64,000 bases of DNA from Elioraea tepida (GCF_019203965.1 NZ_CP076448.1:3277282-3341281); one strand, 5' to 3'; shown: positions 10,704 to 61,289, numbered from the stretch's first letter. Numbers and translations: made by a program. The notes: generated by a model from the sequence alone, not told the origin.

Positions 10704-11525
10704 ATGCCCGGCACGCTCGGCATCATCGCCGGCGGCGGGCCCATGCCCGCGCGTCTTGCCGCCGCCGTCGCCGCGACAGGCCGGCCCGTGTTCGTTCTCG
10801 GGCTCGAGGGCCATGTCGATCGCGCCGCGGTCGCCTCCTTCCCGCACCGCGTGGTTCGCCTCGGGGCCGCCGGCGAGGCGCTCGCCGCGTTGCGCGGCGC
10901 GGGCGTTGACGAGATCGTCCTGATCGGCCCGGTGAAGCGCCCCTCGCTACTGACGCTGATGCCGGATTCGGAAGGGGCGAAGATCCTCGCACGCATCGGC
11001 CGCGCCGCCTTCGCCGGCGACGACGGGCTTCTGGCGGCCGTGATCCGCGTTCTCGAGGAGGAAGGGTTCCGGGTGCGCGGCGTGCAGGAGGTGATGGCCG
11101 GCCTCACCGCTCCAGAGGGCGTGCTCGGCCGGGTCTCCCCGACACCGGAAGCGGAGGCTGACATACGCCGCGGTGTGGCGGTCGCGCGGGCGCTCGGCGC
11201 GGTCGATGTCGGCCAGGCCGTTGTGGTCCAGCAGGGGATCGTTCTTGCCGTCGAGGCGGCCGAGGGAACGGACGCACTGCTCGCGCGCTCGGCCTCGCTT
11301 CGCCGCGCGGGGCCGCCCGGCGTGCTTGTCAAGCTCGCCAAGCCCGGCCAGGAGGCAAGGGCCGATCTGCCCACCATCGGCGTGCGTACCGTCGAGGGAG
11401 CGGCGCGGGCAGGGCTTGCGGGGATTGCGATCGAGGCAGGGCTGACGCTCCTGCCCGAGCGCGAGGCGACGATCGCCGCGGCGGACGAGCTCGCCCTGTT
11501 CCTGGTCGCGCGGCGGTTCGGGTGA
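10704..11525 (+). CDS. lpxI: UDP-2,3-diacylglucosamine hydrolase LpxI (DUF1009 family)
   Basis: MPGTLGIIAGGGPMPARLA... glycine-rich N-terminus. It occupies the alphaproteobacterial lpxA-lpxI position. Confidence 0.8.
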   Translation: MPGTLGIIAGGGPMPARLAAAVAATGRPVFVLGLEGHVDRAAVASFPHRVVRLGAAGEALAALRGAGVDEIVLIGPVKRPSLLTLMPDSEGAKILARIGRAAFAGDDGLLAAVIRVLEEEGFRVRGVQEVMAGLTAPEGVLGRVSPTPEAEADIRRGVAVARALGAVDVGQAVVVQQGIVLAVEAAEGTDALLARSASLRRAGPPGVLVKLAKPGQEARADLPTIGVRTVEGAARAGLAGIAIEAGLTLLPEREATIAAADELALFLVARRFG

Positions 11526-11591
11526 GGCCTCGGCCGAACGTTCCGGGCAAGTGCTGACCCTTGGTTCCTGCTGGCGAGCCGTGCCTCGATC

Positions 11592-12812
11592 ATGGGCGGC
11601 CGCAACAGGAGTGTCATCCCCGACCAGGTTCCCAGACGGCAGGGGCCGCGCCAGGGTTCGCCGATAGCAGAAGACCTTGGCAGCGCCGATCTCGCCGTTG
11701 TTGGCGCAGGGATTGTCGGGCTTGCGTATGCTCTTGCGGCGGCGCGAGCAGGGTTGTCCGTCGTCGTGCTCGACCGCGAGGCGCGCGCCAACAGTGCGAG
11801 CGTGCGCAGTTTCGGTGTCGTCACGGTCACCGGTCAGGCGCCTGGGGAGACCTGGCGTCGCGCCCGCCGCTCCCGCGAGGTCTGGGCTGAGGTCGCGCCC
11901 CGCGCCGGCATCCCCATCCTGCAGCGCGGCCTCGTTCTCGCCTGCCGCCGGGAGGAGGCGCTTGCGGTAGCGGAACAGTTTGTCGCAGGACCGATGGGGG
12001 CCGGCTGCCGCCTGTTCTCGCCTCGCGAGATGGAGGACTTCGGAGTGTTCGCCCCGGGGCTCGCCGGCGGGCTCCACTCGCCGCACGAGCTCCGCGTCGA
12101 GCCGCGCGAGGCGCTGCCGCGCCTCGCCGCGTGGCTCGAGACGGAGCATGGCGTCCGGTTTCTGTGGCGGACGCATGTGCGCGAGGTTGCCCCGCCGGTG
12201 ATCGAGACGAGCGGGGGCAGGCTTCGCGCCGCGCATGCGGTCGTCTGCCCCGCAAACGATTTCCTGTCGCTGTTTCCGGAGGCGATCGAGCGGCACGGGC
12301 CGGTGCGCTGCAAGCTCTCGATGCTCCGCCTGCCCGATCCGGGCTGGCTGCTGCCGGCGTCCGTGATGAGCGATCTTGGCCTCGTGCGCTACCAGGGCTA
12401 TGCCGGGCTGCCGGGAGTTCCCATGCTCCGCGCCCGGCTCGAGGCGGAACAGGCGGACGCCCTCGCCGACGGCATTCACCTGATCGCGGTCCAGTCGGCG
12501 GACGGGTCGCTCGTGGTGGGCGACAGCCATCACTACGGCGACACGCCCGACCCGTTCATGGACGCGGCGGTGGAGGCGCGAATTCTCGAGGAGGCGCGCT
12601 CTGTGCTTCGCCTGCCCAGTGACGCACGGCCCGTCGAGCGCTGGATCGGCGAGTATCCATCCGCCCGCGTGCCGGCCTTCATCGCGGCACCCCTGCCAAC
12701 TGTCCGGGTGGTTATGGTGACCTCCGGCACAGGGATGAGCACCGCTTTCGCGCTCGCCGAAGAGGCGCTCGCCGACCTCGTCGGCCTGCCCGCGCCGGTG
12801 CTCGCTGCCTGA
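11592..12812 (+). CDS. FAD-dependent oxidoreductase (DAO family, TIGR03364-like) associated with phosphonate catabolism
   Basis: N-terminal dinucleotide fold DLAVVGAGIVGLAYALAAARAGLSVVVLDRE. Sits directly upstream of phnX, with no phnW in the locus. Confidence 0.75.
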   Translation: MGGRNRSVIPDQVPRRQGPRQGSPIAEDLGSADLAVVGAGIVGLAYALAAARAGLSVVVLDREARANSASVRSFGVVTVTGQAPGETWRRARRSREVWAEVAPRAGIPILQRGLVLACRREEALAVAEQFVAGPMGAGCRLFSPREMEDFGVFAPGLAGGLHSPHELRVEPREALPRLAAWLETEHGVRFLWRTHVREVAPPVIETSGGRLRAAHAVVCPANDFLSLFPEAIERHGPVRCKLSMLRLPDPGWLLPASVMSDLGLVRYQGYAGLPGVPMLRARLEAEQADALADGIHLIAVQSADGSLVVGDSHHYGDTPDPFMDAAVEARILEEARSVLRLPSDARPVERWIGEYPSARVPAFIAAPLPTVRVVMVTSGTGMSTAFALAEEALADLVGLPAPVLAA

Positions 12813-12815
12813 CCG

Positions 12816-13637
12816 ATGCCACCGCCTCCCTATGCTGGGCCGATCCGCGCCGTCGTGCTCGACTGGGCGGGAACGGTCGTCGATCACGGCTCGCGCGCGC
12901 CGATGGCGGCCTTCGTCCGCGCCTTCGCCCGTTTCGGCGTCGAGATCACCATCGCCGATGCACGCGCGCCGATGGGATTGCCGAAGTGGGACCATATCTG
13001 GGCCGTCGGCACCGCGCCTGCCGTTGCCGCCACCTGGCGCGAGCGGCACGGGCGGGACTTCTCCCGCGCGGATGCGGATGCGATCTTCGCCGTGTTCGAG
13101 CCGATGACGGTCGCCGCGGTGCGCGATCACGCCGATCTCATCCCGGGCACCGTCGAGGCGGTGGCGGCGCTGCGGGCGAGGGGGATCCGCATCGGCAGCA
13201 CCACAGGCTACACGCGGCCGATCATGGAGGTGCTCGCGCCGCTCGCTGCGGCCGCCGGCTATGTGCCGGACACGCTCGTCTGCGCCGGCGATCTCGCCGC
13301 CGGGCGGCCGACACCGCTGATGATGTATCGCTGCTTCGCCGATCTCGGCGTGTGGCCTGCCGCGGCGGTGGTGAAGGTTGATGACACCGCGCCGGGGATC
13401 GCCGAGGGGCTTGCTGCCGGGAGCTGGACCGTCGGCGTCGCTCTGACAGGGAACGCCGCGGGCCTGTCGGCCGCGGAACTTGCCGCGCTCGGGCCGCAGG
13501 AGCGCTCGGCCCTGCGCGCGCGTGCCACGGCCGAGCTCGAAGCGGCAGGCGCACACCTTGTGATCGACAGCATCGCCGATCTTCCCGCCGCGGTGGATGC
13601 GCTCTCGGCCCGGCTGCTCCGCGGCGAGCAGCCCTGA
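12816..13637 (+). CDS. phnX: Phosphonoacetaldehyde hydrolase (phosphonatase)
   Basis: HAD motif I VVLDWAGTVVD, catalytic-Lys context APMGLPK, and IGSTTGYTR and AGRPTPLMM motifs matching bona fide PhnX. Confidence 0.85.
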   Translation: MPPPPYAGPIRAVVLDWAGTVVDHGSRAPMAAFVRAFARFGVEITIADARAPMGLPKWDHIWAVGTAPAVAATWRERHGRDFSRADADAIFAVFEPMTVAAVRDHADLIPGTVEAVAALRARGIRIGSTTGYTRPIMEVLAPLAAAAGYVPDTLVCAGDLAAGRPTPLMMYRCFADLGVWPAAAVVKVDDTAPGIAEGLAAGSWTVGVALTGNAAGLSAAELAALGPQERSALRARATAELEAAGAHLVIDSIADLPAAVDALSARLLRGEQP

Positions 13638-13646
13638 GGCTGCGAA

Positions 13647-13675
13647 CGTCATCTTTTTGAAACGTAATCGTCACG
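13647..13675. promoter_or_regulatory. AT-rich element (cgtcatctttttgaaacgtaatcgtcacg) in the phnX-transporter intergenic region; possible operator/promoter
   Basis: The only AT-rich island in a ~70% GC context, 80 nt upstream of the AEP binding-protein ATG. It contains spaced GTCA half-sites loosely reminiscent of Pho-box or LysR-type sites. Inference only. Confidence 0.25.
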
Positions 13676-13755
13676 CACCTGTCGCGATCGGTGAGAGAGA
13701 GTGGGGGGCGGCGTCCGCTCCGGGCGCCACGTCCACACCACCCCGGGGGTCAGCC

Positions 13756-14781
13756 ATGCTTCGTCGCACGCTTCTTGCCGCCGCAACGCTCGCGCTCGTC
13801 ATGCTGGCCGCCGACGCCTCCGGCCAGCGCACGCGGCTTACCGTCTACACCGCGCTTGAGAACGAGCAGCTTCCCGTGTTCAAGCAGGCGGCGGAGGCGG
13901 CGATCCCCGGGCTCGAGATCGTCTGGGTGCGCGACAGCACAGGCGTGATCACGACCCGCTTGCTCGCCGAGAAGGACAACCCGCGCGCGGATGCGATCTG
14001 GGGCCTCTCCGTCTTCAGCCTCAAGCGTCTCGAGGCGGATGACATGCTCCTTCCCTACACCCCCGCGGGCGCCGAGGCGCTGAGGCCGCAGTTCCGGTCC
14101 GACCGCTCGCCGATGACCTGGGTGGGCTTGGACGCATTCGTTTCTGCCGTGTGCTTCAACACCGTGGTGGCGCGGCAGCGCAACCTGCCCACCCCGCGCA
14201 CCTGGGCCGACCTGCTGAACCCTGTCTATCGCGGGCTGATCGCGATGCCGAACCCGGCCTCCTCCGGCACCGGCCTGCTCACCGTCGCCGGCTGGCTCGG
14301 CACGCAGGGAGAGGAGCAGGCCTGGGCCTTCATGACCCGCCTGCACGAGAACATCGCCGTCTACACCCACAGCGGCTCGGCACCCTGCAACAACGCCGCG
14401 CGCGGCGAATACGCGATCGGCCTCTCCTTCGACATGCGAGCGGTGACGCTGAAGAACCAGGGAGCGCCGATCGAGATCATCGTGCCTACCGACGGTGTGG
14501 GTTTCGACCTCGAGGGGGCGGCCATTCTGCGCGGCACGCGCCAGGAGGCGATGGCGAAGAGGCTGATGGACTTCGCGGTGAGCCGCCCCGCGATGGAGCT
14601 CTACGGTCGCTACTACGCGCTGCTCGGCCTTCCGGGCGTGACGCCGTCGGTGCAGGGCTATCCGCCCGAGTTCGCCGAGCGCCTTGCCAAGGTCGATTTC
14701 GCTACTGTGGCGGCGAACCGTGACCACATCCTCGCCGAGTGGGCGCGTCGGTTCGACGCCAAGTCGGCACCGCGGAACTGA
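13756..14781 (+). CDS. 2-aminoethylphosphonate ABC transporter, periplasmic substrate-binding protein
   Basis: Start chosen at MLRRTLLAAATLALVMLAADASGQ (signal peptide). Iron/AEP-type SBP fold. Genomic context with phnX and the ABC ATPase/permease. Confidence 0.75.
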   Translation: MLRRTLLAAATLALVMLAADASGQRTRLTVYTALENEQLPVFKQAAEAAIPGLEIVWVRDSTGVITTRLLAEKDNPRADAIWGLSVFSLKRLEADDMLLPYTPAGAEALRPQFRSDRSPMTWVGLDAFVSAVCFNTVVARQRNLPTPRTWADLLNPVYRGLIAMPNPASSGTGLLTVAGWLGTQGEEQAWAFMTRLHENIAVYTHSGSAPCNNAARGEYAIGLSFDMRAVTLKNQGAPIEIIVPTDGVGFDLEGAAILRGTRQEAMAKRLMDFAVSRPAMELYGRYYALLGLPGVTPSVQGYPPEFAERLAKVDFATVAANRDHILAEWARRFDAKSAPRN

Positions 14782-14816
14782 GGTGCGGCAACGACTCCGG
14801 GGCGCGTGACGCGGCC

Positions 14817-15959
14817 ATGGACGCATCCGCGGAGGCATCGGCGAAGGCGGGCGCTTCGGTGAGCGTTTCGCGCCCTGAAGCCTCCGCCGATGACTCCTAT
14901 CTCGCCATTCGGCGCCTCACGAAACGGTTCGGCACCTTCACCGCTCTCGACGACATTTCGCTCACGATCCGGCGCGGCGAGTTCGTCTGCTTCCTCGGGC
15001 CTTCGGGCTGCGGCAAGACGACGCTCCTGCGTGCCATCGCCGGGCTCGAGCCGCAGGACGAGGGAACGATCGTCCAGGACGGGCGCGACATCTCGGCGCT
15101 GCCGCCATCGCGCCGGGATTTCGGGATCGTGTTCCAGTCCTACGCCCTCTTCCCCAACATGACCGTGCTCGCCAATGTCGGCTATGGCCTCGCCGCACAG
15201 GGAAAGAGCCGGGCTTTTGTGGAGAACCGGGCGCGCGAGCTCCTGTCGCTTGTGGGTCTTGCCGACCAGTGGTGGAAGTATCCGGCGCAGCTCTCGGGAG
15301 GGCAGCAGCAGCGCGTCGCGCTCGCGCGGGCGCTTGCGATCAGCCCCGGCCTGCTTCTGCTCGACGAGCCGCTCTCCGCGCTCGATGCGCTCGTGCGTGT
15401 CCACCTCCGCGCCGAGATCAAGGCGCTGCAGCGTCGCCTCGGCATCACCACGGTGATGGTCACGCACGACCAGGAGGAAGCACTCTCGATCGCCGACAGG
15501 ATCGTGGTGATGAACCGCGGCCGTATCGAGCAGGTCGGCACGCCTGATGCGGTCTACCGGCGGCCGGAGAGCCTGTTCGTCGCGGGCTTCGTCGGGCGGA
15601 TGAACAGCCTGCCCGGAACGGTGGTCGACTCCTCGACGGTCGCGATCGGCGCGGTTCGGCTCGCGGCGGAGGCCGCTGCGCGCTTCCCCTCCGGAGCGGC
15701 GGTGCAGGTCTGCATCCGGCCGGAAGACGTGCAGCTTGACCGTCCGGGACTTGCGGGGACGCGCCTTGCTGCCACCGTCCGCGGCCTCGAGTATCTCGGC
15801 TCGATCACGCGAATCCCCCTCGAGGCGGCCGGCCTGCCGCTGACGGCAGAGCTGCCCGATACGGCGTTGCGTTCGCTCGCGCCCGAGCCCGGCGGGTCGC
15901 TCACGGTCGTGCTGTCGCCGGATCGGGTGCTGCTCTTCCCCCGCCCGGGCGAAGCCTGA
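14817..15959 (+). CDS. 2-aminoethylphosphonate ABC transporter, ATP-binding protein
   Basis: Walker A GPSGCGKTT, signature LSGGQQQRVALARAL, Walker B LLLDEPLSALD, plus a C-terminal TOBE-like domain. Confidence 0.8.
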   Translation: MDASAEASAKAGASVSVSRPEASADDSYLAIRRLTKRFGTFTALDDISLTIRRGEFVCFLGPSGCGKTTLLRAIAGLEPQDEGTIVQDGRDISALPPSRRDFGIVFQSYALFPNMTVLANVGYGLAAQGKSRAFVENRARELLSLVGLADQWWKYPAQLSGGQQQRVALARALAISPGLLLLDEPLSALDALVRVHLRAEIKALQRRLGITTVMVTHDQEEALSIADRIVVMNRGRIEQVGTPDAVYRRPESLFVAGFVGRMNSLPGTVVDSSTVAIGAVRLAAEAAARFPSGAAVQVCIRPEDVQLDRPGLAGTRLAATVRGLEYLGSITRIPLEAAGLPLTAELPDTALRSLAPEPGGSLTVVLSPDRVLLFPRPGEA

Positions 15960-15964
15960 CCACG

Positions 15965-17671
15965 ATGCTGCCTTTGGCGGGAACGCTCGAGGCACCGGTC
16001 CGGGTCCGGCCGCAGCCCTCGGCCGACGACCACCTGCTCGCCGGCATCGTGCTGCTCGCGGGGCTGTTCCTCGCACTGGCGCTTGCCGCCCCGCTCGGCG
16101 CCCTGCTGCTCAAAAGCTTCCAGGACGACCGGGGCGGCTTCGTAGGTCTTGCGAACTATCTTCGCTACTTCGAAACGCCGGCCCTGATTGGCTCGCTTTG
16201 GAACAGCCTCTGGGTCGCCGCCGTCTCGACGGCGATCGTGCTGCCGCTCGCTTTCGGCTACGCCTATGCGCTCACGCGAAGCGCGATCCCGCTCAAAGCC
16301 CTGTTCCGCGCCATCGCCCTGATCCCGATCCTCGCCCCGTCGCTTCTGCCGGCGCTTGCGCTGATCTACCTCTTCGGCAACCAGGGCATGCTCAAGCCGC
16401 TCCTGATGGGTGGGACGATCTACGGGCCCGCCGGGATCATCGTCTCGCAGGTGTTCTACTGCTTTCCCCCGGCGGTGCTGATTCTCGCGACCGCTCTCTC
16501 GGGGGTAGATGCGCGCCTGTACGAAGCGGCCGAGGCGCTGAGGGCCTCGCGGATCCGCGTGCTCCGAACCGTCACCCTGCCGGCGGCGCGCTACGGCATG
16601 GTCTCGGCCGGGTTCGTGGTGTTCACGCTCGTGATCACCGATTTCGGCATCCCGAAGGTGATCGGCGGCTCGTTCAACGTGCTTGCAACCGATGTCTACA
16701 AGCAGGTGGTCGGGCAGCAGAACTTCCAGATGGGGGCCGTGGTCGGCATGGTGCTGCTCGCCCCCGCCGTGCTCGCCTTCGCGGCCGACCAGTGGGCGCA
16801 GCGTCGGCAGACCGCCACCGTCTCGGCCCGTGCGGTGCCCTATGTGCCGAAGCCGCGGCCGGGGCGTGACCTCCCGCTGCTTATCTTCTGCACCATCCTC
16901 TCGCTTCTCATGGTGGGGCTGATCGGGGTCGCCGCCTGGGGAAGCCTGATCACCTTCTGGCCTTGGAACCTTTCGCTCACGCTTGCCAATTACGACTTCG
17001 CCCGGTTCGACAGCGCCGGCTGGGGAAGTTGGTGGACCAGCGTGCGCATGGCGGCTTGGACGGCGGCGATCGGCGCGCCGCTCGTCTTCGTTTTCGCCTA
17101 CGGGATGGAACGGGCGAAGCGTCTGCCGGCGCTTGTGGGCCTCGTCCGCTTCGCGGCCACCGTTCCGCTTGCCGTGCCCGGGCTCGTGCTCGGAATCGCC
17201 TACATCCTCTTCTTCAACGCTCCCGAAAACCCGCTCGGGTTCCTCTACGGCACGCTCGCGATCCTTGTCCTCAACTCTCTCGTGCACTTCTACACGGTCG
17301 GGCATCTCGCCTCCGTAACGGCGCTGAAGCAGCTCGACCCCGAGTTCGAGAGCGTGGCCGCGAGCCTGAAGGTGCCGCTGTGGCGGACCTTCCTGGCGGT
17401 GACCCTGCCGATCTCCCTGCCCGTGCTGCTCGACGTCGCGATCTATCTCTTCGTCAACACGATGACCACGGTCTCGGCCGTGGTGTTCCTCTACGCTCCC
17501 GACATCAAGCCTGCGGCGGTCGCTCTCGTGCAGATGGACGAGGCGGGCCAGGCCTCGGCCGCGGCGGCGATGGCGATGACGATCCTTGCGACGTCGGCCG
17601 CCGTGAAGGGCCTGCATCTCGCGGCGGATCGTGCGCTCGCGCACCGAACCGAGGCGTGGCGCCGGGCCTGA
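15965..17671 (+). CDS. 2-aminoethylphosphonate ABC transporter permease (fused two-domain)
   Basis: 568-aa polytopic ORF containing two ABC-permease EAA-like loops. Immediately follows the ATPase. Confidence 0.8.
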   Translation: MLPLAGTLEAPVRVRPQPSADDHLLAGIVLLAGLFLALALAAPLGALLLKSFQDDRGGFVGLANYLRYFETPALIGSLWNSLWVAAVSTAIVLPLAFGYAYALTRSAIPLKALFRAIALIPILAPSLLPALALIYLFGNQGMLKPLLMGGTIYGPAGIIVSQVFYCFPPAVLILATALSGVDARLYEAAEALRASRIRVLRTVTLPAARYGMVSAGFVVFTLVITDFGIPKVIGGSFNVLATDVYKQVVGQQNFQMGAVVGMVLLAPAVLAFAADQWAQRRQTATVSARAVPYVPKPRPGRDLPLLIFCTILSLLMVGLIGVAAWGSLITFWPWNLSLTLANYDFARFDSAGWGSWWTSVRMAAWTAAIGAPLVFVFAYGMERAKRLPALVGLVRFAATVPLAVPGLVLGIAYILFFNAPENPLGFLYGTLAILVLNSLVHFYTVGHLASVTALKQLDPEFESVAASLKVPLWRTFLAVTLPISLPVLLDVAIYLFVNTMTTVSAVVFLYAPDIKPAAVALVQMDEAGQASAAAAMAMTILATSAAVKGLHLAADRALAHRTEAWRRA

Positions 17672-17674
17672 GGC

Positions 17675-18397
17675 TCAGAACTGGCCGCGCTGGAGGCGGA
17701 ACACGTCGGGGTTCAGCGGATCGGCCACGTAGGCGAGGCGGAGGCCGAAGGGGCGCGGCGCCGTCGGCGCCGCGTTCGCGGGCGGAGCGGCCGGCAGGAG
17801 CTGCAGCTGCACCATCCGCCCCTGCTCGTCGAGGCCGCGGAAGATGAGCGTTGAGCCGTCCGCGAGCAGAACCCCGCCTGCGACCGACCCTGCGCGCCAC
17901 GCAAGGGCGGCGAAGTGCTTCCTCAGCGCCTCCGCCGCGTTGATCAGCGCGTCCTGCCGGACCGTCGGGTCGGCGGGAGGGCCCCAGAGGATGGTGACCT
18001 GGATCAGCCGCTTCGTCTGGTGCCCGAGCGTGTAGGACACGCGCGCCGTGCCGGTGTCGGGGATCAGGTTCGGCACCGTGACGGTCAGCACCTGCGTGCG
18101 CTCAACCGGTGTCTGTTCGGAGACGATCCGTTCCGCTGCCTGCGGAAAATCGCGCCTTATGGCGGCACGCACCTCCGCCTCCGTCATGCCGAAGCGTGCG
18201 GAGCGGAACCCCTCGACAGCTGCGGCCTCCAGGGGGGGTGACTGTGCCGGCGGTGCGGCCGGAGAAGGGGGCGCGGGCTGCGTCTGCTGCGCCGCGGCTC
18301 GCGGCTGTGCCTGTGCGTCCGCCTGCGGGCGAGCAGATTGTGCAGCGGCAACGCCGGCTACCAGCAGGGCGAGGAGGACGGGAACGGAATGGCGCAT
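17675..18397 (-). CDS. Hypothetical exported protein (signal peptide plus Ala/Gln/Pro-rich linker)
   Basis: Minus-strand ORF starting at the ATG at 18397: MRHSVPVLLALLVAGVAAAQS..., then a PAQ-rich low-complexity stretch and a globular C-terminus. The upstream part of the 499-aa track ORF is antisense shadow of vgrG. Confidence 0.55.
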   Translation of the reverse strand: MRHSVPVLLALLVAGVAAAQSARPQADAQAQPRAAAQQTQPAPPSPAAPPAQSPPLEAAAVEGFRSARFGMTEAEVRAAIRRDFPQAAERIVSEQTPVERTQVLTVTVPNLIPDTGTARVSYTLGHQTKRLIQVTILWGPPADPTVRQDALINAAEALRKHFAALAWRAGSVAGGVLLADGSTLIFRGLDEQGRMVQLQLLPAAPPANAAPTAPRPFGLRLAYVADPLNPDVFRLQRGQF

Positions 18398-18484
18398 GGA
18401 CGCGACGATGCCCGATGCCGCGCGTGTGCGCCACCCGGGCGCGTGACGGGGCTGACTTCCCCGAGGTAGTCTCCGCGGAGGAGG

Positions 18485-20484
18485 ATGCGCGGGCCGATGC
18501 TGCCGATCATCCAGACCGAGAAACGGACGATGGGCCTCTCGTCCGGGCCCTTTCCGCCCGACTCGCTCATCCCCGAGCGCGTCACCGGCAGCGAATCGCT
18601 CTGCGGTCTGTTCTCCTACGACATCGATTTCCTGACCGACCAGACGGAGCTGAAACCCGCCGAGCTGCTCGGCAAGAAGCTCGGCCTCGAACTCGGCAAG
18701 GGCACGCCCGATCGGGCCTTCATCAACGGCCACGTGGTGCGGCTTTCGCTCGGGGACTATCTCGGCGGCAACTACGGCATGGCCTATCGCCGGATCTCCT
18801 GCCGGATCGTTCCGTGGTTCTGGTTCCTCGACCATACGACCGACTGCCGCGTCTTCCAGAACCGCACCGTCCAGGAGATTCTCGAGACGCTGTTCGGCGA
18901 CGCCGGCTTCACCGACGACAAGTTCTTGCTCCGGGGCAGCCTCGCGCCGCGCACCTACGTGCTCCAGTACAACGAGACCGACTACGCCTTCGCCTGCCGG
19001 CTGATGGCCGAGGAGGGCCTCGTGTGGTGGGTGGCCTCGACCGCCGAGACGCATACGCCGATCATCACCAACCACAATGACGGTCTGAGGGCCTCGGGCG
19101 CCCAGCCCTTGAAGCTGCCGCCGCGCGAGGCGTCGCAGGTGCGCAACAGCTTCGACAGCCTTCGAGAGACCCACGTCTGGAAGCCCGGCAAGGTTGCGGT
19201 CAGCGACTCAGAGTTCCGAGCGATCTCGACCGATCTGACGACAGAGAAATCCTCGCTGCTCGGCCTGCCGCTCGCCGACAAGTTCGAGATCTTCGTCTGG
19301 CCCGGGCGCTTCCCCACAAAGGGAAAGGGCGACAGCCCGGCGGCCCGCAGCGACGGCGAGCCGCTCGCGACACACCTCGTCGAGGCGCTCGAGTCGGAAG
19401 CGACACGGCTCGAATCGCGACGGATTCCCACGCGCCGATGCTCGGCGTGCCGATCGAGATCCTCGACAACGCCCAAGCCTCAAGCGGAACGCCCTACCTG
19501 ATCGAGCGGCTGAGCCGAACGATGGCGGATGAGATCCATCTCAATGCGCGCGCCATTCCCGTCTGTCGCACCACGGTGAGCGCCTTCCCGGCCGGCACGA
19601 CCTATCGGATGCGGCCCGTTCCCGAACGGCCGAAGCTCCCGAACCTGATGCTCGGCAGGGTCGTCGGGCCGAAGGGAGAGGAGATCCATGTCGACGAGTA
19701 TGGCAGGGTGAAGGTCCAGTTCCTGTGGGACCGTCTCGGCGAAGGCGACGAAAACGCCTCGTGCTGGATGCGGCTCTCCCAGGCCTGGGCCGGCAGCGGC
19801 TTCGGGATCATGGCGCTGCCGCGGATCGGCATGGAGGTGATCGTCGGCTTCCTAGACGACGACCCCGATCACCCGGTGGTGCTCGGCTGCCTGCACAACA
19901 ACGAGAACAAGGTGCCCGTCGCGCTTCCCGAGAACAAGACGCAGACGGGGATCGTGACCAGGTCCTCGACGGGCGGGGGAAGCTCCGACTACAACGCGCT
20001 TCTGTTCGAGCACAAGGCAGGGTCGGAGAAGGTAACGTTCCAGGCACAGAAGGACTACGAGCGCCTTGTCAAGAACAACGAGAAGGTGACGATCAAGGCG
20101 AATCGCACGCTGCTGATCGAAGGCAAACAGAAATATGATGTCAAAGGCGACTATGACCTGACGGTGCAGCAGGGCAACCACAAGGTCGAGATCAGCAAGG
20201 GCAAGTTCGACACCAAGGTCGGCATGGGGAACATGTCGGTCAAGGTGTCGATGGGCAACCTCTCGACGAAGGTCAACCTCGGCAAGATCGACAGCGAGGC
20301 GATGCAGTCGATCGAGTTCAAGGTGGGCACCAGCTCGGTCAAGATCGACCAGATGGGCGTAACCATCAAGGGCATGATGATCAAGATCGAAGGCACCGTC
20401 ATGCTCGAGGCCAAGGGCCTGATGACGAAGGTGAGCGGCGACGGGATGATGATGCTGAAGGGCGGCATCATCATGATCAATTGA
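18485..20484 (+). pseudogene. vgrG: Type VI secretion spike protein VgrG, interrupted by a frameshift near 19420-19440
   Basis: N-terminal part (18485-19501 frame) has gp27-like VgrG motifs (LFSYDIDFLT, RAFINGHVVRLS, DYAFACRLMAEEGLVWWV). The remainder (19438-20484 frame) has the gp5/beta-helix part (GRVKVQFLWDRLGEGDENASCWMR, VLGCLHN, repetitive KV..G C-terminus). The two halves are in different frames. Confidence 0.8.
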
Positions 20485-21389: not shown

Positions 21390-21971
21390 GTGACGGACCT
21401 CGTTCTCTCCATCGTCCGCTGCCTCGACGCCGCCGTGCCGGCCACACGGCGCGTGACGGGGGGCAAGCCCTCGATCGGCCGCGGTGAGGATAATGACTGG
21501 GTTCTCGTCGATCCGAACCGGCATCTCTCCAAGCGTCACTGCACCATCGCCTTCCGCTCGGGCCGCTGGATCGTGACCGACCTTTCCACCAACGGCACGT
21601 TCCTTGACCGCGCCCGAGAGCCGATCGGCCGCGGCGCCTCCGCGCCGCTGCGCGACGGCAGCCGGCTCACCCTCGGCGAGTACGAGATCGAGGTGCGGCT
21701 CGAGGAGCGCGAGGCCAGCGCCCCTGGCCTCGGTGCCGCGAACCCGTTCGACGACGATCCCTTCGCTCTCCCGAAGCCCGCACCGGCGCCGTTCGAGAAC
21801 GATCCGTTCGGGCGTGACCCGTTCGCGGACGAACCACTGGCACGGCCGGTCGCGACCGACCCCTTCGCCGGTCTTGGCGGCGGCCCCGCTCCGGCCGCCC
21901 CCGTGATCCCGGCGGATTTCGACCCGCTCTCCGACATCGAGCGCGGCGACCGGCTCTCCGACCGCTCCTGA
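21390..21971 (+). CDS. FHA-domain protein (T6SS Fha/TagH-like)
   Basis: FHA core SIGRGEDNDWVLVDPNRHLSKRHCTIAFRSGRWIVTDLSTNGTFL, followed by a Pro/Asp/Phe-rich tail. 4-nt spacing after PAAR. Confidence 0.75.
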   Translation: MTDLVLSIVRCLDAAVPATRRVTGGKPSIGRGEDNDWVLVDPNRHLSKRHCTIAFRSGRWIVTDLSTNGTFLDRAREPIGRGASAPLRDGSRLTLGEYEIEVRLEEREASAPGLGAANPFDDDPFALPKPAPAPFENDPFGRDPFADEPLARPVATDPFAGLGGGPAPAAPVIPADFDPLSDIERGDRLSDRS

Positions 21972-21994
21972 ACGGCGGGAGGAAGCCGGCCGGA

Positions 21995-23500
21995 TCATCT
22001 CCCTGCCGTCTCGGATGCCTTCGCTCCGCCGCCCGTGGTGCGGAACACGATCCCGGACGACAGGGATCTCGACCTGCCCGGGCCGTCGAGCCCGGCGCCC
22101 GAGGCGCCGCCGCCACCCGTGCCAGAACAGCGCGATCCTTTCACTGCACCGGCGGCAGGCGCTCCGCCGAGGCCGGCGGCGGCTCCGGAGGCCGTTCCGC
22201 CCTCGAGCATGATGACCGGGCACGGCCTTGCCGCCACCGTTGCGCCGCCGCGTGCGCCGACCGCGCCCTCGCCGCCCGGGGGCCAGGCCGGAACGGGTTC
22301 GGCCGGCGAGGGCGAGCGGCTGCTGGCGACGGGCCCCGGCGCAGCGGGCGTGACGGGCGGGGGCGTGGCGAGGGCGACGGGGGGCGGCGGGCTCGGCGTC
22401 GTCGCGGCCGGAAGCGTTGCCTGGGCCGTTGCCTGCGGCGCCGCCGGCTCAGGCGTGGGAGCGTCGGTGCCGCGCCCAAACAGGAGGAAGGCGGCAACGC
22501 CCGCCGCGACCACGGCGCCCGCGCCCCCCGCCACAAGGCCGAAGGGAAGCCCCTTCTTCGTGACGGGCGGCTGCGTCCCAGACCGGACGGGGACCGAAAC
22601 GGCGGGGCGGTCGGACGGCGCGCTGGCAACGACGGTCACTTCGGTGTCAGCCCCGCCGAGCAGGCCAAGCAGCGGGTCGGAGGCCTCCGCCTCGTGCATC
22701 GCTTCGGCAATCGCCTCGCGGAACGCTGCCGCGGTCTGGAATCGTTCGGCGGGACGCTTCGCCATCGCCTTTCGCACCACCGCGTCGAAAACGGGCGGAA
22801 CCGAGCCCGCGATCTCGGACGGCCGCGGCGGCTCGACATTCAGCACCTTGTGCATGATCGCGGTGAGGTTGCCCTCGAAGGGCTTGTCGCCGGTGAGCGA
22901 CTGATAGAGCACGACGCCGGCGGAATAGAGGTCGGTGCGCGCGTCCGCCGGCTCGCCGCGGAACTGCTCGGGCGACATGAGGCGGGCGTTCCGAGCACCG
23001 TTCCCGCCTACGTCATCGTCGAACTCTCGATCCGGGCGATGCCGAAATCGGCGACCTTCACCTGCCCGCTCCCGGTGAGCATCATGTTGGCAGGCTTGAT
23101 GTCGCGGTAAACCACGCCCTTCTCGTGCGCATGCCCAAGCGCGGCGAGGAGCTCGTCCATCACCCGAGCGACCTGCGGCAGCGGCAGCCGCTCGCCGGCA
23201 TCGAGGCGTGTCTCCAACGATCCGCCGTCGACATGCTCCATCACGATGTAGGCGAGATCGCCCTCTTCGCCGTAGTCGTAGACCGCGACGATGTTCGGGT
23301 GCGAGAGCCTGCCCGCGGCCTGGGCCTCGCGCTTGAACCGGGCGATCTCCTCCTGCGCCTCGGCATCGTGCGCGTCGAGCGTGACGGTCTTGATCGCGAC
23401 GATCCGGTCGATCACCGGGTCGCGCGCGCCACACCGTGCCCGCCGCACCCTTGCCGATGGCCGTGATGATCTCGTACTTGCCGAGACGTTCGAGGTTCAT
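21995..23500 (-). pseudogene. Membrane Ser/Thr protein kinase (PpkA-like) with two frameshifts in the catalytic domain
   Basis: Start MNLERLGKYEIITAIGKGAAGTVWRAR (Gly loop) at 23500. Subdomains II-VII (VAIKTV, HPNIVAVYDY, HRDIKPANMML, VKVADFGIA) lie in a different frame (ORF 23008-23448). The original frame then resumes (MSPEQFRGEPADARTDLYSAGVVLYQ), followed by a TM segment and a Pro/Ala-rich tail. Confidence 0.7.
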
Positions 23501-23725
23501 GCGCAAGCCCGTCTCCGTCGCCTCCTTGGTCCTAGACCGGTGCGGGGGCGACGCGGAAGAATGACGGGCGGCGCTCGCGGCCGGAGCTGCCTCAGAGGCT
23601 CGTCGTGCCGAGCGCCTCATGTCTACAGCGGCTGAAGGACTCCACTCGGCTCCACGCGCGAGGCGGCGAAGACAGCCGCGCGCGCCCTTCCGAAGGGGAG
23701 GGATGGGAGACATGGGGAGAAACGG

Positions 23726-24997
23726 ATGAGAAGGTGATTCCTCGCGGCTGCGGCCGCGGTCGCGATGGCTCTTGCCGTGCCCGGGGCGGCCTCGGCGCAG
23801 CAGGAACCTATTCAGATCGGCATCCTCGTCGCCCTCGAGGGCGCGTTCGCGGAAGGCGGCAGGGACGGCATTCGCGGCATCGAGCTCGCGCTGCGGACCG
23901 TCAACAACACGATCGCGGGCCGGCGGATCGAGACCATCATCGCGCCGACTGACACCCGCCCCGACACCGCCGTGCGCCAGGCACGCAAGCTGATCGAGCA
24001 GGACCGGGTCGACTTCGTGATCGGCCCGCTCTCCGGCTCCGAGGGGATCGCGATCCGCGACTACGCCAAGACGGTTCCCGACAGGACCTTCATCAACGGC
24101 GCCTCCGGCGCGCTTGAGGCGACCTGGGTCGATCCGGCGCCGAACTTCTTCCGGTTCCACACGCACGGGCCGCAGTGGGGCGCGGGCTTGGGCGAATACG
24201 TGGTCCGCACCAAGGGCTGGCGCCGGATCTCCACCGTCGCGGCCGACTACTCGTTCGGCCACACCAACTTCATGGGCTTTGCGATCGACGTCTGCCGCAA
24301 CGGCGGCGACATCGTGCGCCGCTTCTGGGTGCCGCTCGGCTCGGCCGATTTCGCTGCCGTGATCGCGCAGCTCCCCGACGACGTCGACGCCATCTATCTC
24401 GGCCTCGGCGGCACGGATGCGATCAACTTCCTCAACCAGTACGCTCAGGCCGGGTCGAAGATGAACTTCATCGGCGGCACGATCATGGCAGACCAGACCG
24501 TTCTGACCTCGCGCGGGCGCGCGCGCGAGGCGCTGATCGGCACGCCGACCTCCGGGATGAAGTCGGACGAGAACCCCGATCCGGCGTGGCAGGAGTTCGT
24601 GCAGCGCTACCGCGCCGCCTATCCGGAGGGGCAGCGCTTCCCCTCGCCGACGATCTTCGCGACCGGCTACTACCTCAGCACGCTCGCGGCGGTCGAGGCG
24701 CTGAAGAAGGGCAATGGCGATCTCTCAGGCGGGCAGAGGGCGTTCCAGCAGGCGCTTGCGACGCTCGAGCTTGACACGCCGCTCGGCAAGATCAAGCTCG
24801 ACGAGACGCGCCAGGCGATGGGGCCGGTGTTCGTCAACGAGGTGACAGCGCGGCCTGACGGCACACTCGACAACCGGATGGTCAAGGGCGTGGACAACGT
24901 GTCGCAGACGCTCGGGCTGCCGGTGGAGGAGTTCCGGGCGCTCGGCCTACCCTCGCGCGACACGCCCGACTGCGCACGGCTGAGGACGCGCCGCTGA
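23726..24997 (+). CDS. livK: Branched-chain amino acid-type ABC substrate-binding protein (LivK-like); in-frame TGA at codon 4 of the predicted signal peptide
   Basis: A GGAGA RBS plus ATG at 23726 gives MRR[TGA]FLAAAAAVAMALAVPGAASAQ... The ORF track begins at the internal ATG at 23765, which would leave no signal peptide. PBP type-1 fold (Leu/Ile/Val-BP family). Confidence 0.7.
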
Positions 24998-25149: not shown

Positions 25150-26163
25150 GTGACCGCTCTCGCGCGCGCCAACCCGGTGGTCGTGCTCGTCGTCGCGATC
25201 CTCCTGGCGTTCGTGCTCTGGCTCATCTTCGCACCCTGGCCGCCGGGCGTGACGGCCGTGATGGGCCCGAAACGGGTGTTCCTGAGCGCGCTGCTCTCGG
25301 GCATCACGCTCGGCGCCCTCTACTTCCTGGTCGCAAGCGGCTTCACGCTGATCTTCGGGCTGATGCGCAACGTCAATCTCGCGCACGGCTCGCTCTATCT
25401 GCTCGGCGGCTATCTCGGCTTCGAGATCGCCGACAGGACGGGGGCGTGGCTGCTCGCCTTCCCGGTCGTGGTCGTGCTCGTTGCGCTGCTCGGCGTGGTG
25501 CTGCAGCATCTCGTGTTCCGCCGGATGGAGGGCGAGGAGCTGCGGCAGACGCTAGTCACGATCGGCCTCTCGATCGTGATCGCCGACATCCTGCTGTGGA
25601 TCTGGGGCGGCAAGTCCTACCAGATCCTCACGCCCGACTTCCTCGCGGGGCCGATCGATCTGCCGCTCGTGACGGCGATTCGCTCCGACGGCACGGCCGT
25701 CTATCTCCGCTATCCGCGTGTTCGGATCTGGATCCTGATCGCCGCCATCGTGGTTGGTGTGGCGATGTGGCGTGTGATGACCCGCACGCGCATCGGCATG
25801 CTGATCCGCGCTGGGGTGGATGACCGCGATATGCTCGCCGCCTCCGGCCTGCCGATCCAGGCTATGTTCGTTCTTGTCTTCGCCTTCGGCGCGGGACTTG
25901 CTGGGATCGCGGGAATCATCGGCGGCACCTTCCAGTCGCTCGCCCCGGGCGAGGACACGCGGTTCCTGCTCGCGAGCCTCGTGGTGGTGATCGTGGGCGG
26001 GATGGGGTCGTCCCCCGGGGCGGCGCTCGGCGCCCTGATCATCGGGCTCGCCGAGCAGCTCGGCGTGGTCTACGCCCCGACCTACTCGGTCGTGTTCACC
26101 TTGCTCATCATGGCGGCGGTGCTCGCGTTCCGGCCGCAGGGCCTGCTTGGGCGGAAAGGCTGA
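25150..26163 (+). CDS. livH: Branched-chain amino acid-type ABC permease (LivH-like)
   Basis: 337-aa polytopic ORF with the LivH-family pattern (NLAHGSLYLLGGY ... GGMGS). Confidence 0.85.
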   Translation: MTALARANPVVVLVVAILLAFVLWLIFAPWPPGVTAVMGPKRVFLSALLSGITLGALYFLVASGFTLIFGLMRNVNLAHGSLYLLGGYLGFEIADRTGAWLLAFPVVVVLVALLGVVLQHLVFRRMEGEELRQTLVTIGLSIVIADILLWIWGGKSYQILTPDFLAGPIDLPLVTAIRSDGTAVYLRYPRVRIWILIAAIVVGVAMWRVMTRTRIGMLIRAGVDDRDMLAASGLPIQAMFVLVFAFGAGLAGIAGIIGGTFQSLAPGEDTRFLLASLVVVIVGGMGSSPGAALGALIIGLAEQLGVVYAPTYSVVFTLLIMAAVLAFRPQGLLGRKG

Positions 26164-27222
26164 TGGCGGTGGCCGGAGAGGCGCGGACGGCTGCGAGCGA
26201 GATGCCGTTCGGCGCGCTCGGCCGCATCCCTGCCGCGATCTGGGCGGTTGCGGCGCTGCTCCTGCTGATGCCGACATTCGCCAACAATTTCGTCCTGTTC
26301 CAGGTGTTCGGCTGGACCTTCATCCTCGGCATGATTGCCCCGTCTCTGATGTCCCTCGCGGGCTATGGCGGCATGGTGAGCCTGATCCAGATGACTGTCG
26401 CGGGGCTTGCCGGCTACATGGTCGCGATCCTTGGGCCCTCGGGCACGGAGCAGGTGAGCCTCGGCCTTGCGTGGTGGATCACCGTTCCGGCTGCGATCGT
26501 CGTCGCGACCCTGTTCGGAACGCTCGTCGGCGCGCTCGCGGTGCGCACCGAGGGCATCTACACAATCATGATCACGCTCGCGATCGCGGCCGCCTTCTTC
26601 TATTTCACGCGGCAGAACTACACGATCTTTCAACGGGTACTCTGGCTTCAGCCTGGTGGTTCCACCGCGCCTGTTCGGGATCGACTGGCGCCAGCCAATC
26701 CCCTTCTACTATCTGAGCCTCGGCTGTGCCGCGCTTGCCTACGCCGCGGTGGTCTATGTCTCGCGCGCGCCGTTCGGGCTTGCGCTCCAGGGCGTGCGCG
26801 ACAACGCCCGCCGCATGGCGGCGCTCGGCTACAACGTCGTCTGGCACCGGATCCTCGCCTACAGTTTCGCTGCCGTGATCGCCTCCTTCGGCGGAATCCT
26901 GCTCGTCTGGCAGAACGCCCAGATCGCACCTGGAACGGCCGGCATCCCGGCGGTCATCGACATTCTCGTGATCGCCGTGGTGGGCGGGATGCGCCACCCG
27001 ATCGGCCAATTCATCGGCGCCTTCATCTATGTGCTGCTCAGTTCCTTCGCCCCCGATGTGCTGACGACCTTCGGCCTCGCTCCCGATCGCTTCAAGCTGC
27101 TCGTGGGCTTGGGCTTCCTTGCGGTCGTGTATTTCTGACCGGATGGGGTGCTCGGGCTGTGGGAAAGGGCGCGGCGAAAGATGCGCGAACGCACTGACCC
27201 GCTCACTGGGCAGCCGCGATGA
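26163..27222 (+). pseudogene. livM: ABC permease LivM-like; frameshift near 26628-26633 and in-frame TGA at 27136-27138
   Basis: N-part ...FFYFTRQNYTIF in one frame; continuation NGYSGFSLVVPPRLFGIDWRQPIPFYYL in another (+1 in a cttt run). After TGA 27136 the frame continues with the family-typical PDGVLGLWERARRK and ends in an ATGA overlap with livG (27219-27222). This argues the TGA is secondary. Confidence 0.75.
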
Positions 27223-28853: not shown

Positions 28854-28951
28854 GTAGAGCAGCTCGAGCGCATGGCCCGGGTGTTGACGGCGCAATCACC
28901 CGGGCCGGGCACGACGGCGCACGCCGAGCTTCGTCCGCTCGCGAGCCCGGG

Positions 28952-38279: not shown

Positions 38280-38282
38280 ACG

Positions 38283-41138: not shown

Positions 41139-41151
41139 GGGAGAGGGTGTC

Positions 41152-42000: not shown

Positions 42001-42016
42001 TCGGAGGCGAGAGGCG

Positions 42017-61288: not shown

Positions 61289-61289
61289 C

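What the first reader, a model, noticed from the sequence alone, without database searches (positions are those of the whole stretch)
11592..17671. AEP uptake/catabolism locus with phnX but no phnW; a TIGR03364-type FAD oxidoreductase sits in the phnW position
The canonical phosphonatase route needs the PhnW transaminase to generate phosphonoacetaldehyde for PhnX. This locus instead encodes a DAO-family FAD oxidoreductase directly upstream of a bona fide PhnX (DWAGT, PMGLPK, IGSTTGYTR), followed by an AEP-type ABC transporter. FAD oxidoreductases recurrent in phosphonate clusters have been reported to oxidise AEP or N-methylated AEP to phosphonoacetaldehyde. This enzyme may replace PhnW (oxidative deamination) or broaden substrate range. 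The locus is lesion-free, unlike its neighbours, suggesting it is functional.
Basis: partly seen in the sequence, partly recalled or inferred. Interest (0 to 1): 0.6.

Follow-up and report, generated by a model that had tools for sequence, protein, structure and literature searches.

The report
PbfD–PhnX aminoethylphosphonate catabolic operon
A five-gene operon of the hot-spring bacterium Elioraea tepida most likely imports 2-aminoethylphosphonate and degrades it with a flavin amine oxidase (PbfD) plus phosphonatase (PhnX) instead of the usual transaminase; this route was described and tested biochemically in 2023, so this is an ordinary new example, not a discovery.

Summary
Window 11592-17671 carries five co-directional intact ORFs. 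All score above NCBIfam's curated cut-offs: TIGR03364 FAD oxidoreductase, PhnX, PhnS2, PhnT2 and PhnU2. No phnW, phnY, phnA, phnZ or pbfA homologue was found in the 64 kb, or within 10 kb of the orthologous locus in relatives.

Zangelmi et al. 2023 (PMC10590968) named TIGR03364 enzymes PbfD. They showed that PbfD oxidises N-methyl-AEP and AEP to phosphonoacetaldehyde using O2. They also described pbfD-phnX clusters lacking phnW as an alternative AEP pathway.

The window protein is 35% identical to the tested PbfD2 and 27% to PbfD1. It keeps most of the family motifs and models as a glycine/sarcosine-oxidase fold.

"Lesion-free" needs three qualifications:
- The ancestral pbfD ATG is ATA here, so the ORF starts 24 codons upstream.
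- Two near-invariant residues of the RNFGF loop are changed.
- Three 99.6-99.7% identical metagenome contigs carry a frameshift in phnU2.

Whether phnW lies elsewhere in the genome could not be tested. Verdict: a new member of a known kind, of low interest.

The parts
11592..12812 (+). pbfD: TIGR03364 / PF01266 FAD-dependent amine oxidase. The ORF is 406 aa; the part shared with orthologues starts at 11664 (382 aa). The GxGxxG motif lies at 11703-11720.
   Evidence: 384.6 bits against a cut-off of 285.1; 35% identity and E 3e-52 to PbfD2, 27% to PbfD1; family motifs; pLDDT 93.4 with a glycine-oxidase-like fold; identical to E. tepida QXM24660.1.
11664..11666 (+). ATA codon at the position of the ATG start codon of orthologous pbfD genes. 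RefSeq starts the protein here (382 aa); GenBank starts it at ATG 11592.
   Evidence: DNA alignment with L002, L004 and L006. The in-frame TAG four codons upstream in the relatives is CAG in the window. P0123 begins 'MAEDLG...', P0122 begins 'MGGRNRS...'.
11602..11616 (+). GCAACAGGAGTGTCA, a 15-mer (exact in two relatives, 3 mismatches in a third) that lies in the intergenic region upstream of pbfD in Elioraea relatives. Here it falls inside the extended ORF. It may be a regulatory or promoter element; its function is unknown.
   Evidence: conserved in L002, L004 and L006; unique in the window, 0.02 matches expected by chance; no Rfam match.
11546..11592 (.). Junction where a ~290-aa FAA_hydrolase-family gene, present between lpxI and pbfD in three relatives, is missing.
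   Evidence: gene present in L002, L004 and L006; the blastn alignment breaks at 11545/11593; no tblastn hit for it in the window.
12816..13637 (+). phnX: phosphonoacetaldehyde hydrolase (phosphonatase), 273 aa.
   Evidence: TIGR01422, 339 bits against 220. E 1e-53 to B. cereus PhnX 1rql. D16, K57, H60, M53, G54, T130, Y132, R164 and D190 align with D12, K53, H56, M49, G50, T126, Y128, R160 and D186.
13756..14781 (+). phnS2: periplasmic AEP-type substrate-binding protein, 341 aa with a signal-peptide-like N-terminus (MLRRTLLAAATLALVMLAADASG).
   Evidence: TIGR03261, 411.7 bits against 392.75; start inferred from 341-aa orthologues.
14817..15959 (+). phnT2: ABC transporter ATPase with a TOBE domain, 380 aa.
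   Evidence: TIGR03265, 488.6 bits against 457.7. ABC_tran plus TOBE_2; orthologues called at 380 aa.
15965..17671 (+). phnU2: fused two-domain ABC permease, 568 aa, intact here. Position 16912 is where three near-identical metagenome contigs have a 1-nt deletion that splits the gene.
   Evidence: TIGR03262, 748.1 bits against 593.25, profile 6-545 of 546; frameshift in L014-L016.

Best explanation
This is a PbfD-PhnX type hydrolytic operon for 2-aminoethylphosphonate (AEP).

- Inferred from family assignment: the PhnS2/T2/U2 ABC system imports AEP and probably its N-methyl derivative.
- Inferred from homology to the assayed PbfD2 and PbfD1: PbfD, a non-covalent FAD amine oxidase with a glycine/sarcosine-oxidase fold, oxidises the C-N bond using O2. 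The imine hydrolyses to phosphonoacetaldehyde plus ammonia (or methylamine), and H2O2 is released.
- Inferred, with the catalytic residues shown to be present: PhnX forms a Schiff base through Lys57. With Asp16 as nucleophile it cleaves the C-P bond to acetaldehyde and phosphate.

PbfD therefore takes the place of the PhnW transaminase in the cluster. The host, Elioraea tepida, is a strict aerobe and catalase-positive, which suits an O2-dependent, H2O2-forming step.
For: All five proteins exceed the curated NCBIfam cut-offs.

PbfD family membership:
- 35% identity (E 3e-52) to PbfD2 of M. fucicola, 27% to PbfD1, and no real similarity to PbfC.
- The motifs GxGxxG, CKLxML, GDSHxY and RWxGxY are shared with both tested enzymes.
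- The AF2 model has pLDDT 93.4. Its best PDB folds are glycine oxidase 4ysh (E 4e-22, TM 0.76), L-amino-acid deaminase and sarcosine oxidases.

Published biochemistry: PbfD2 acts on AEP with kcat/KM 3400 and on N-methyl-AEP with 13500 M-1 s-1. The products are phosphonoacetaldehyde, ammonia or methylamine, and H2O2. pbfD2-type genes are mostly found with phnX alone (PMC10590968). Later work repeats this (PMC13576164).

PhnX catalytic residues are conserved.

No phnW, phnZ, phnY, phnA or pbfA was found in the window. No phnW was found in any of the related loci fetched.

The five-gene module is conserved in Elioraea relatives and in a different genomic context in another Acetobacteraceae MAG. 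The same gene set recurs in Bordetella.

dN/dS against the 86%-identical orthologues is 0.14-0.26, like the neighbouring lpx genes at 0.10-0.18.

The host is strictly aerobic and catalase-positive (PMC8781829).
Against: No enzyme from this clade has been assayed, and identity to the tested PbfD2 is only 35%.

The ancestral ATG is ATA here. Translation must use either a poor start codon or an upstream ATG without an obvious Shine-Dalgarno sequence.

The window allele reads RSFGVV where at least 90% of relatives read RNFGFV, in a loop modelled at lower confidence.

Three contigs 99.6-99.7% identical to the window have a frameshifted phnU2, so the locus is dispensable in part of the population.

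The broken vgrG gives a similarly low dN/dS, so low dN/dS does not prove present-day function.

A phnW elsewhere in the genome was not excluded.
Confidence: 0.75

Rival explanations
1. PbfD is only an accessory enzyme for N-methyl-AEP. Plain AEP is handled by a PhnW transaminase encoded elsewhere in the E. tepida genome, with PhnX shared by both routes.
For: PbfC and PbfD1 prefer N-methyl-AEP by 18- to 400-fold. [quoted passage not shown] Only 64 kb of a 3.37 Mb genome was examined.
Against: The window protein is closer to PbfD2, which prefers N-methyl-AEP over AEP only 4-fold, than to PbfD1. pbfD2-type clusters usually lack phnW, and M. fucicola lacks it genome-wide. No phnW was found within +/-10 kb in any relative.
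Confidence: 0.25
2. The operon is in early decay in E. tepida and is poorly functional or non-functional, despite the open reading frames.
For: ATG became ATA at the ancestral pbfD start, and the adjacent upstream gene was deleted. There are two substitutions in the near-invariant RNFGF loop. Three independent near-identical contigs carry a phnU2 frameshift. Many broken genes lie in the following 45 kb.
Against: All five ORFs are full length in the window and score above the curated cut-offs. The upstream stop was also removed, giving an in-frame ATG, and RefSeq accepts the ATA start. pbfD shows no substitutions among the population contigs. The PhnX catalytic residues are intact.
Confidence: 0.15
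3. The oxidase acts on a different amine. One candidate is 1-hydroxy-2-aminoethylphosphonate, as the original TIGR03364 description guessed. Another is a glycine or glyphosate-like compound, as suggested for Achromobacter HpnW.
For: The TIGR03364 description and in silico docking are both quoted in the literature. The nearest tested enzyme is only 35% identical.
Against: The published microtiter screens reported activity of the PbfD enzymes only on AEP and its N-alkyl derivatives. Non-phosphonate analogues and 2-hydroxyethylphosphonate were not oxidised. The partner here is a true PhnX and the transporter is AEP-type. No phnZ or pbfA, which would indicate hydroxy-AEP use, is present in the cluster.
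Confidence: 0.07

Closest known systems
PbfD2-PhnX pathway of Mariniblastus fucicola (Zangelmi et al. 2023, PMC10590968)
   Same: A TIGR03364 FAD amine oxidase is encoded next to phnX in a cluster without phnW. The oxidase makes phosphonoacetaldehyde from AEP and N-methyl-AEP using O2.
   Different: Identity is only 35%. The M. fucicola cluster also has phnZ. Here there is a PhnS2T2U2 ABC importer and no phnZ or pbfA. The host is a thermophilic alphaproteobacterium, and the start codon is anomalous.
pbfD-phnX clusters of other Alphaproteobacteria (Novosphingobium sp. P6W, Caulobacter segnis and Sphingopyxis fribergensis in Table S1 of PMC10590968; Novosphingobium sp. EMRT-2 plasmid)
   Same: The same adjacent pair, annotated by RefSeq as a TIGR03364 oxidoreductase followed by phosphonoacetaldehyde hydrolase, with no phnW in the cluster.
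   Different: Identity is about 50%. The transporters differ (TonB-dependent receptors or a DUF5690 protein), and local regulators are present (UTRA/GntR, DeoR). No regulator gene is adjacent in the window.
Achromobacter hpnW-phnX-phnSTU operons (PMC11203657)
   Same: A TIGR03364 gene replaces phnW in a phosphonatase operon with an ABC importer. The same gene set is seen in the Bordetella loci L012 and L013.
   Different: Those clusters also have a LysR regulator and an HD-domain oxygenase, and a phnW exists elsewhere in the chromosome. Identity to the window PbfD is about 34% in Bordetella.
Classical PhnW-PhnX phosphonatase pathway (Salmonella phnRSTUVWX, B. cereus)
   Same: The same intermediate (phosphonoacetaldehyde), the same C-P cleaving enzyme (PhnX) and an ABC uptake system.
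   Different: The first step there is a PLP transamination to pyruvate. It is O2-independent, makes no H2O2 and cannot use N-methyl-AEP. No phnW is present here.
PbfB and PbfC N-methyl-AEP oxidoreductases
   Same: They are PF01266 flavoenzymes in AEP clusters that produce phosphonoacetaldehyde.
   Different: They are separate clades, and the window protein shows no significant similarity to PbfC (E 0.036). PbfC is a dehydrogenase that discriminates 400-fold against AEP, and it occurs together with phnW.

Membership tests
PbfD (TIGR03364 FAD-dependent amine oxidase) | Scores above the curated cut-off of NCBIfam TIGR03364 over the full profile | tested here: met
   384.6 bits against a cut-off of 285.1, profile 2-365 of 365
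PbfD (TIGR03364 FAD-dependent amine oxidase) | PF01266 DAO domain with an N-terminal GxGxxG dinucleotide-binding motif | tested here: met
   DAO at E 3.1e-36. GAGIVG occupies ORF residues 38-43, and these columns are invariant among 30 relatives.
PbfD (TIGR03364 FAD-dependent amine oxidase) | Significant full-length similarity to the experimentally characterised PbfD1 and PbfD2, and not to PbfB or PbfC | tested here: met
   35% identity (E 3e-52) to PbfD2, 27% (E 7e-25) to PbfD1, and E 0.036 to PbfC. The reference sequences were taken from the paper's supplementary alignment, which is machine-read text with a few uncertain letters. PbfB was not compared.
PbfD (TIGR03364 FAD-dependent amine oxidase) | Family-conserved motifs shared by PbfD1 and PbfD2 (RNFG, CxLxM, GDSHxY, RWxGxY) | tested here: inconclusive
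   GDSHHY, RCKLSML and ERWIGEY are present. The RNFGF loop reads RSFGVV, so two positions that are at least 90% conserved are changed.
PbfD (TIGR03364 FAD-dependent amine oxidase) | Encoded in a cluster with phnX (or phnY/phnA) | tested here: met
   phnX starts 4 nt after the pbfD stop. The pairing is conserved in L002, L004, L006, L007, L008, L012, L013, L017 and L018.
PbfD (TIGR03364 FAD-dependent amine oxidase) | Two-domain amine-oxidase fold of the glycine oxidase / sarcosine oxidase type | tested here: met
   AF2 pLDDT 93.4 and pTM 0.92. Foldseek top hits are 4ysh glycine oxidase, 5hxw L-amino-acid deaminase and 7exs sarcosine oxidase, at TM 0.72-0.78. No structure of the family itself is in the PDB.
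PbfD (TIGR03364 FAD-dependent amine oxidase) | O2-dependent oxidation of N-methyl-AEP and/or AEP to phosphonoacetaldehyde | not testable with these tools
   This needs an enzyme assay. It is known only for the A. baumannii and M. fucicola enzymes.
PbfD2-type pathway (PbfD substitutes for PhnW) | The cluster lacks phnW | tested here: met
   No Aminotran_5 domain was found in any scanned ORF of the window. tblastn with Salmonella PhnW gave a best E of 5.2 in the window and no hit in the related loci.
PbfD2-type pathway (PbfD substitutes for PhnW) | The whole genome lacks phnW | not testable with these tools
   Only the window and +/-10 kb flanks of relatives could be read. The single genome-contig scan returned no Elioraea locus.
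PbfD2-type pathway (PbfD substitutes for PhnW) | Falls in the non-PbfD1 part of the PbfD tree | tested here: inconclusive
   The protein is closer to PbfD2 than to PbfD1 by BLAST. No tree with the published 64 sequences could be built, because their sequences were not retrievable.
PhnX phosphonoacetaldehyde hydrolase (TIGR01422, HAD superfamily) | HMM score above the cut-off, plus the Asp nucleophile and the Schiff-base Lys of the cap domain | tested here: met
   339 bits against 220. D16, K57, H60, M53, G54, T130, Y132, R164 and D190 align with B. cereus D12, K53, H56, M49, G50, T126, Y128, R160 and D186. C22 is Ser, as in PDB 3iru. The residue roles come from my knowledge of the B. cereus structures.
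PhnS2/T2/U2 putative AEP ABC transporter | All three components score above the equivalog cut-offs and are adjacent | tested here: met
   TIGR03261 411.7 against 392.75, TIGR03265 488.6 against 457.7, and TIGR03262 748.1 against 593.25. The substrate itself is only 'putative' in the family definition.
Classical PhnWX phosphonatase operon | phnW (AEP:pyruvate transaminase) encoded with phnX | tested here: not met
   as above.

The most novel reading that the evidence does not exclude
The Elioraea/Acetobacteraceae PbfD clade is only 35% identical to the one tested PbfD2, and in this strain it carries changes in the conserved RNFGF loop and a shifted start. It may therefore use a substrate or electron acceptor different from the published PbfD enzymes. 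In that case the operon would process an aminophosphonate other than AEP or N-methyl-AEP, or would work through a non-oxidase mechanism.
Probability: 0.07. Interest if true: 0.4.

Novelty: new member of a known kind. Interest (0 to 1): 0.13.

Why it matters
The value is mainly for annotation. The locus can be named pbfD-phnX-phnS2T2U2 rather than left as a "TIGR03364 family oxidoreductase". It extends the published oxidative AEP route to a moderately thermophilic, strictly aerobic phototrophic mat bacterium.

It suggests that Elioraea in Yellowstone mats can scavenge phosphonates as a phosphorus or nitrogen source. A thermostable PbfD could also be a convenient protein for solving the first structure of this family, since none is in the PDB.

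The start-codon shift and the permease frameshift segregating in the population are small but concrete cases of a nutrient-scavenging operon under fluctuating selection. None of this changes current understanding of phosphonate catabolism.

Tried and rejected
- **Genome-wide phnW search.** The single genome-contig scan, with PbfD as query, returned only five distant loci and no Elioraea genome. Whether phnW lies elsewhere stays open. A protein-database search with PhnW was considered and not run. Only the 120 best hits are listed without a taxon filter, so a negative result would mean nothing.
- **Class-V aminotransferase next to pbfD on an Asticcacaulis plasmid.** It is PvdN/SufS-like, not PhnW, so it was not used as evidence. 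A genuine annotated PhnW was taken from a Salmonella plasmid instead.
- **RNA elements.** An Rfam search of 11000-18500 at E <= 1 found nothing.
- **Promoters and terminators.** The scan gave one minus-strand promoter-like site and one weak terminator-like site inside phnU2. Neither exceeded chance.
- **Conserved 15-mer upstream of pbfD.** It does not resemble a two-repeat Pho box on inspection, and it occurs only once in the window. Its role is unresolved.
- **dN/dS as a test of current function.** Rejected as uninformative, because the frameshifted vgrG gives similar values.
- **Literature.** The species description of Elioraea tepida contains nothing on phosphonates. One paper search was wasted on a too-loose query.
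- **FAA_hydrolase gene as part of the module.** Rejected. It is absent from the same five-gene module in another Acetobacteraceae MAG and from the window.


Full report
**Observation**

Each matches the expected NCBIfam equivalog above its curated cut-off:
- TIGR03364 FAD oxidoreductase: 384.6 bits against 285.1, full profile.
- PhnX TIGR01422: 339 against 220.
- PhnS2 TIGR03261: 411.7 against 392.75.
- PhnT2 TIGR03265: 488.6 against 457.7.
- PhnU2 TIGR03262: 748.1 against 593.25.

Pfam agrees, giving DAO, HAD, SBP_bac, ABC_tran plus TOBE_2, and BPD_transp_1. Comparison with orthologues places the likely starts of phnS2 at 13756 (341 aa, signal-peptide-like N-terminus) and phnT2 at 14817 (380 aa).

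**Source organism**

The oxidoreductase is identical to GenBank QXM24660.1 of Elioraea tepida, whose complete genome is 3,367,643 bp. E. tepida MS-P2 is a strictly aerobic, catalase-positive, moderately thermophilic phototroph from a Yellowstone mat. Its description says nothing about phosphonates (PMC8781829).

**What the oxidoreductase is**

Zangelmi et al. 2023 (PMC10590968) named TIGR03364-annotated enzymes in AEP clusters PbfD. They purified PbfD1 (A. baumannii) and PbfD2 (M. fucicola) and reported the following:
- Both enzymes oxidise N-methyl-AEP and AEP to phosphonoacetaldehyde.
- O2 is the electron acceptor, and H2O2 and methylamine or ammonia are released.
- For PbfD2, kcat/KM is 13500 M-1 s-1 on N-methyl-AEP and 3400 on AEP.
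- pbfD genes outside the PbfD1 clade are mostly associated with phnX alone.
- M. fucicola has no phnW, and PbfD2 plus PhnX constitutes a distinct AEP pathway.

A 2026 paper treats this as established (PMC13576164).

Using the sequences printed in the paper's supplement, the window protein is 35% identical to PbfD2 over 369 residues (E 3e-52). It is 27% identical to PbfD1 and unrelated to PbfC beyond the Rossmann motif. It shares the motifs GxGxxG, C-K-L-x-M-L, GDSHxY and RWxGxY with both tested enzymes.

No member of the family has a solved structure; the best PDB sequence hit has E 6e-6. An AlphaFold2 model built from 30 relatives is confident, with pLDDT 93.4. It superposes on glycine oxidase, L-amino-acid deaminase and sarcosine oxidases at TM 0.72-0.78. 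This is the expected amine-oxidising flavoenzyme fold.

**PhnX and the transporter**

PhnX aligns without gaps to B. cereus phosphonatase (E 1e-53). It keeps the Asp nucleophile (D16), the Schiff-base lysine (K57), H60, M53, G54, T130, Y132, R164 and D190. Cys22 is Ser, as in PDB 3iru.

**Absence of phnW**

Pfam scans of every sizeable ORF in the 64 kb found no class-V aminotransferase, HD oxygenase, PhnA, PhnY or PbfA. Six-frame tblastn with an annotated Salmonella PhnW gave nothing better than E = 5 in the window. It gave no hit in any of the related loci fetched. A PhnZ-like query also found nothing.

This does not cover the rest of the genome. In Achromobacter, an hpnW-phnX-phnSTU operon coexists with a distant phnW (PMC11203657).

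**Conservation**

Three Elioraea-like relatives, with PbfD 77-86% identical, have lpxD-fabZ-lpxA-lpxI-FAA_hydrolase-pbfD-phnX-phnS2-T2-U2 followed by a type VI secretion vgrG cluster. A more distant Acetobacteraceae MAG has the same five-gene module next to photosynthesis genes. Prosthecomicrobium keeps the pbfD-phnX pair. Bordetella loci hold the same five genes in another order. RefSeq plasmids of Novosphingobium and Asticcacaulis show the same annotated pair.

dN/dS against the 86%-identical orthologues is 0.14-0.26, similar to the adjacent lpx genes at 0.10-0.18.

**Is the locus lesion-free?**

vgrG is frameshifted near 19312-19414, and a PEP_hydrolase-like gene has an in-frame TAA at 30611. 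Many genes further downstream are split or truncated. The vgrG lesion is shared by three independent metagenome assemblies, so it is real and not an artefact.

The phosphonate locus is not untouched, however:
- **Upstream deletion.** The FAA_hydrolase gene upstream of pbfD in the relatives is deleted, with the junction at 11546-11592.
- **Start codon.** The ATG start of the orthologues is ATA at 11664-11666, and the in-frame TAG four codons upstream is CAG. The ORF therefore now runs from an ATG at 11592 and adds 24 residues. GenBank annotates the 406-aa form and RefSeq the 382-aa form starting at ATA. A 15-mer, GCAACAGGAGTGTCA, that is intergenic in the relatives now lies inside the ORF.
- **Loop substitutions.** The window allele reads RSFGVV where at least 90% of relatives, including PbfD1 and PbfD2, read RNFG(F/M)V.
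- **Permease frameshift in sister strains.** Three contigs 99.6-99.7% identical to the window carry a 1-nt deletion at position 16912. It splits phnU2 into 318 and 252 aa, while the window keeps the ancestral 568-aa ORF.

The operon is therefore intact in this strain but dispensable in part of the population.

**Mechanism**

The best-supported reading has three steps. The ABC system takes up AEP or N-methyl-AEP. PbfD then deaminates it oxidatively to phosphonoacetaldehyde, forming H2O2. PhnX finally hydrolyses the C-P bond to acetaldehyde and phosphate. All three steps are inferred from homology and context, and none was measured in this organism.

**Novelty and verdict**

This organism was not in the published list, so it is a new member of a known kind. 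Interest is low.

The only points beyond the literature are small: the start-codon shift, the loop substitutions, and the segregating permease frameshift.

Noticed in passing
window 18485-20484: The type VI secretion vgrG is split by a frameshift near 19312-19414 into 338- and 348-aa ORFs, while relatives have one 655-689 aa gene. The same split occurs in three independent metagenome contigs, so it is a real pseudogene in this lineage.
   Followed up: yes
window 21390-24262: The FHA-domain type VI secretion gene is truncated to 193 aa, against 523 aa with a T6SS_FHA_C domain in L002. The adjacent Ser/Thr kinase on the minus strand appears split: the kinase N-lobe lies at 23008-23496 and the C-lobe inside 21995-24262.
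   Followed up: partly
window 26163-31027: A run of damaged genes: a truncated liv-type permease; an ABC ATPase in two pieces (28006-28482 and 28344-28853); UPF0261 lacking its first ~78 profile positions; and a PEP_hydrolase-like gene interrupted by an in-frame TAA at 30611-30613.
   Followed up: partly
window 35367-43570 and 57574-63705: Further split or fused genes: a coxL-like molybdopterin subunit (35367-37256 plus 37653-38279); an SGL lactonase tail fused to an isochorismatase (42017-43570); an AMP-binding enzyme in two frames (57574-59844 and 59109-60398); and a Peripla_BP_6 protein with an in-frame TGA at 63289-63291. This is an unusually high pseudogene density for a free-living bacterium, if it is not due to sequencing error.
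   Followed up: no
window 11546-11592 (compare L002 9051-9932): A ~290-aa FAA_hydrolase-family gene lies between lpxI and pbfD in three Elioraea relatives. It is missing from the window and from all near-identical contigs.
   Followed up: yes
window 11602-11616: The 15-mer GCAACAGGAGTGTCA lies upstream of pbfD in Elioraea relatives (exact in two, 3 mismatches in E. rosea) and is unique in the window. It does not look like a canonical two-repeat Pho box and has no Rfam match. It may be an operator or promoter element.
   Followed up: partly
window 16912 (L014 15321, L015 15320, L016 15321): A 1-nt deletion (TCATGGTGGGG to TCATGTGGGG) in three 99.6-99.7% identical metagenome contigs splits phnU2. 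In these contigs the transporter genes also carry 7-10 substitutions each relative to the window, while pbfD carries none.
   Followed up: yes
window 17675-18448 (minus strand): A convergent ORF directly after phnU2 has no Pfam match and is partly conserved in L002 (260 aa). In L004 and L006 an Asp/Glu-racemase-family gene lies just downstream of phnU2 in that interval. Its function is unknown.
   Followed up: no
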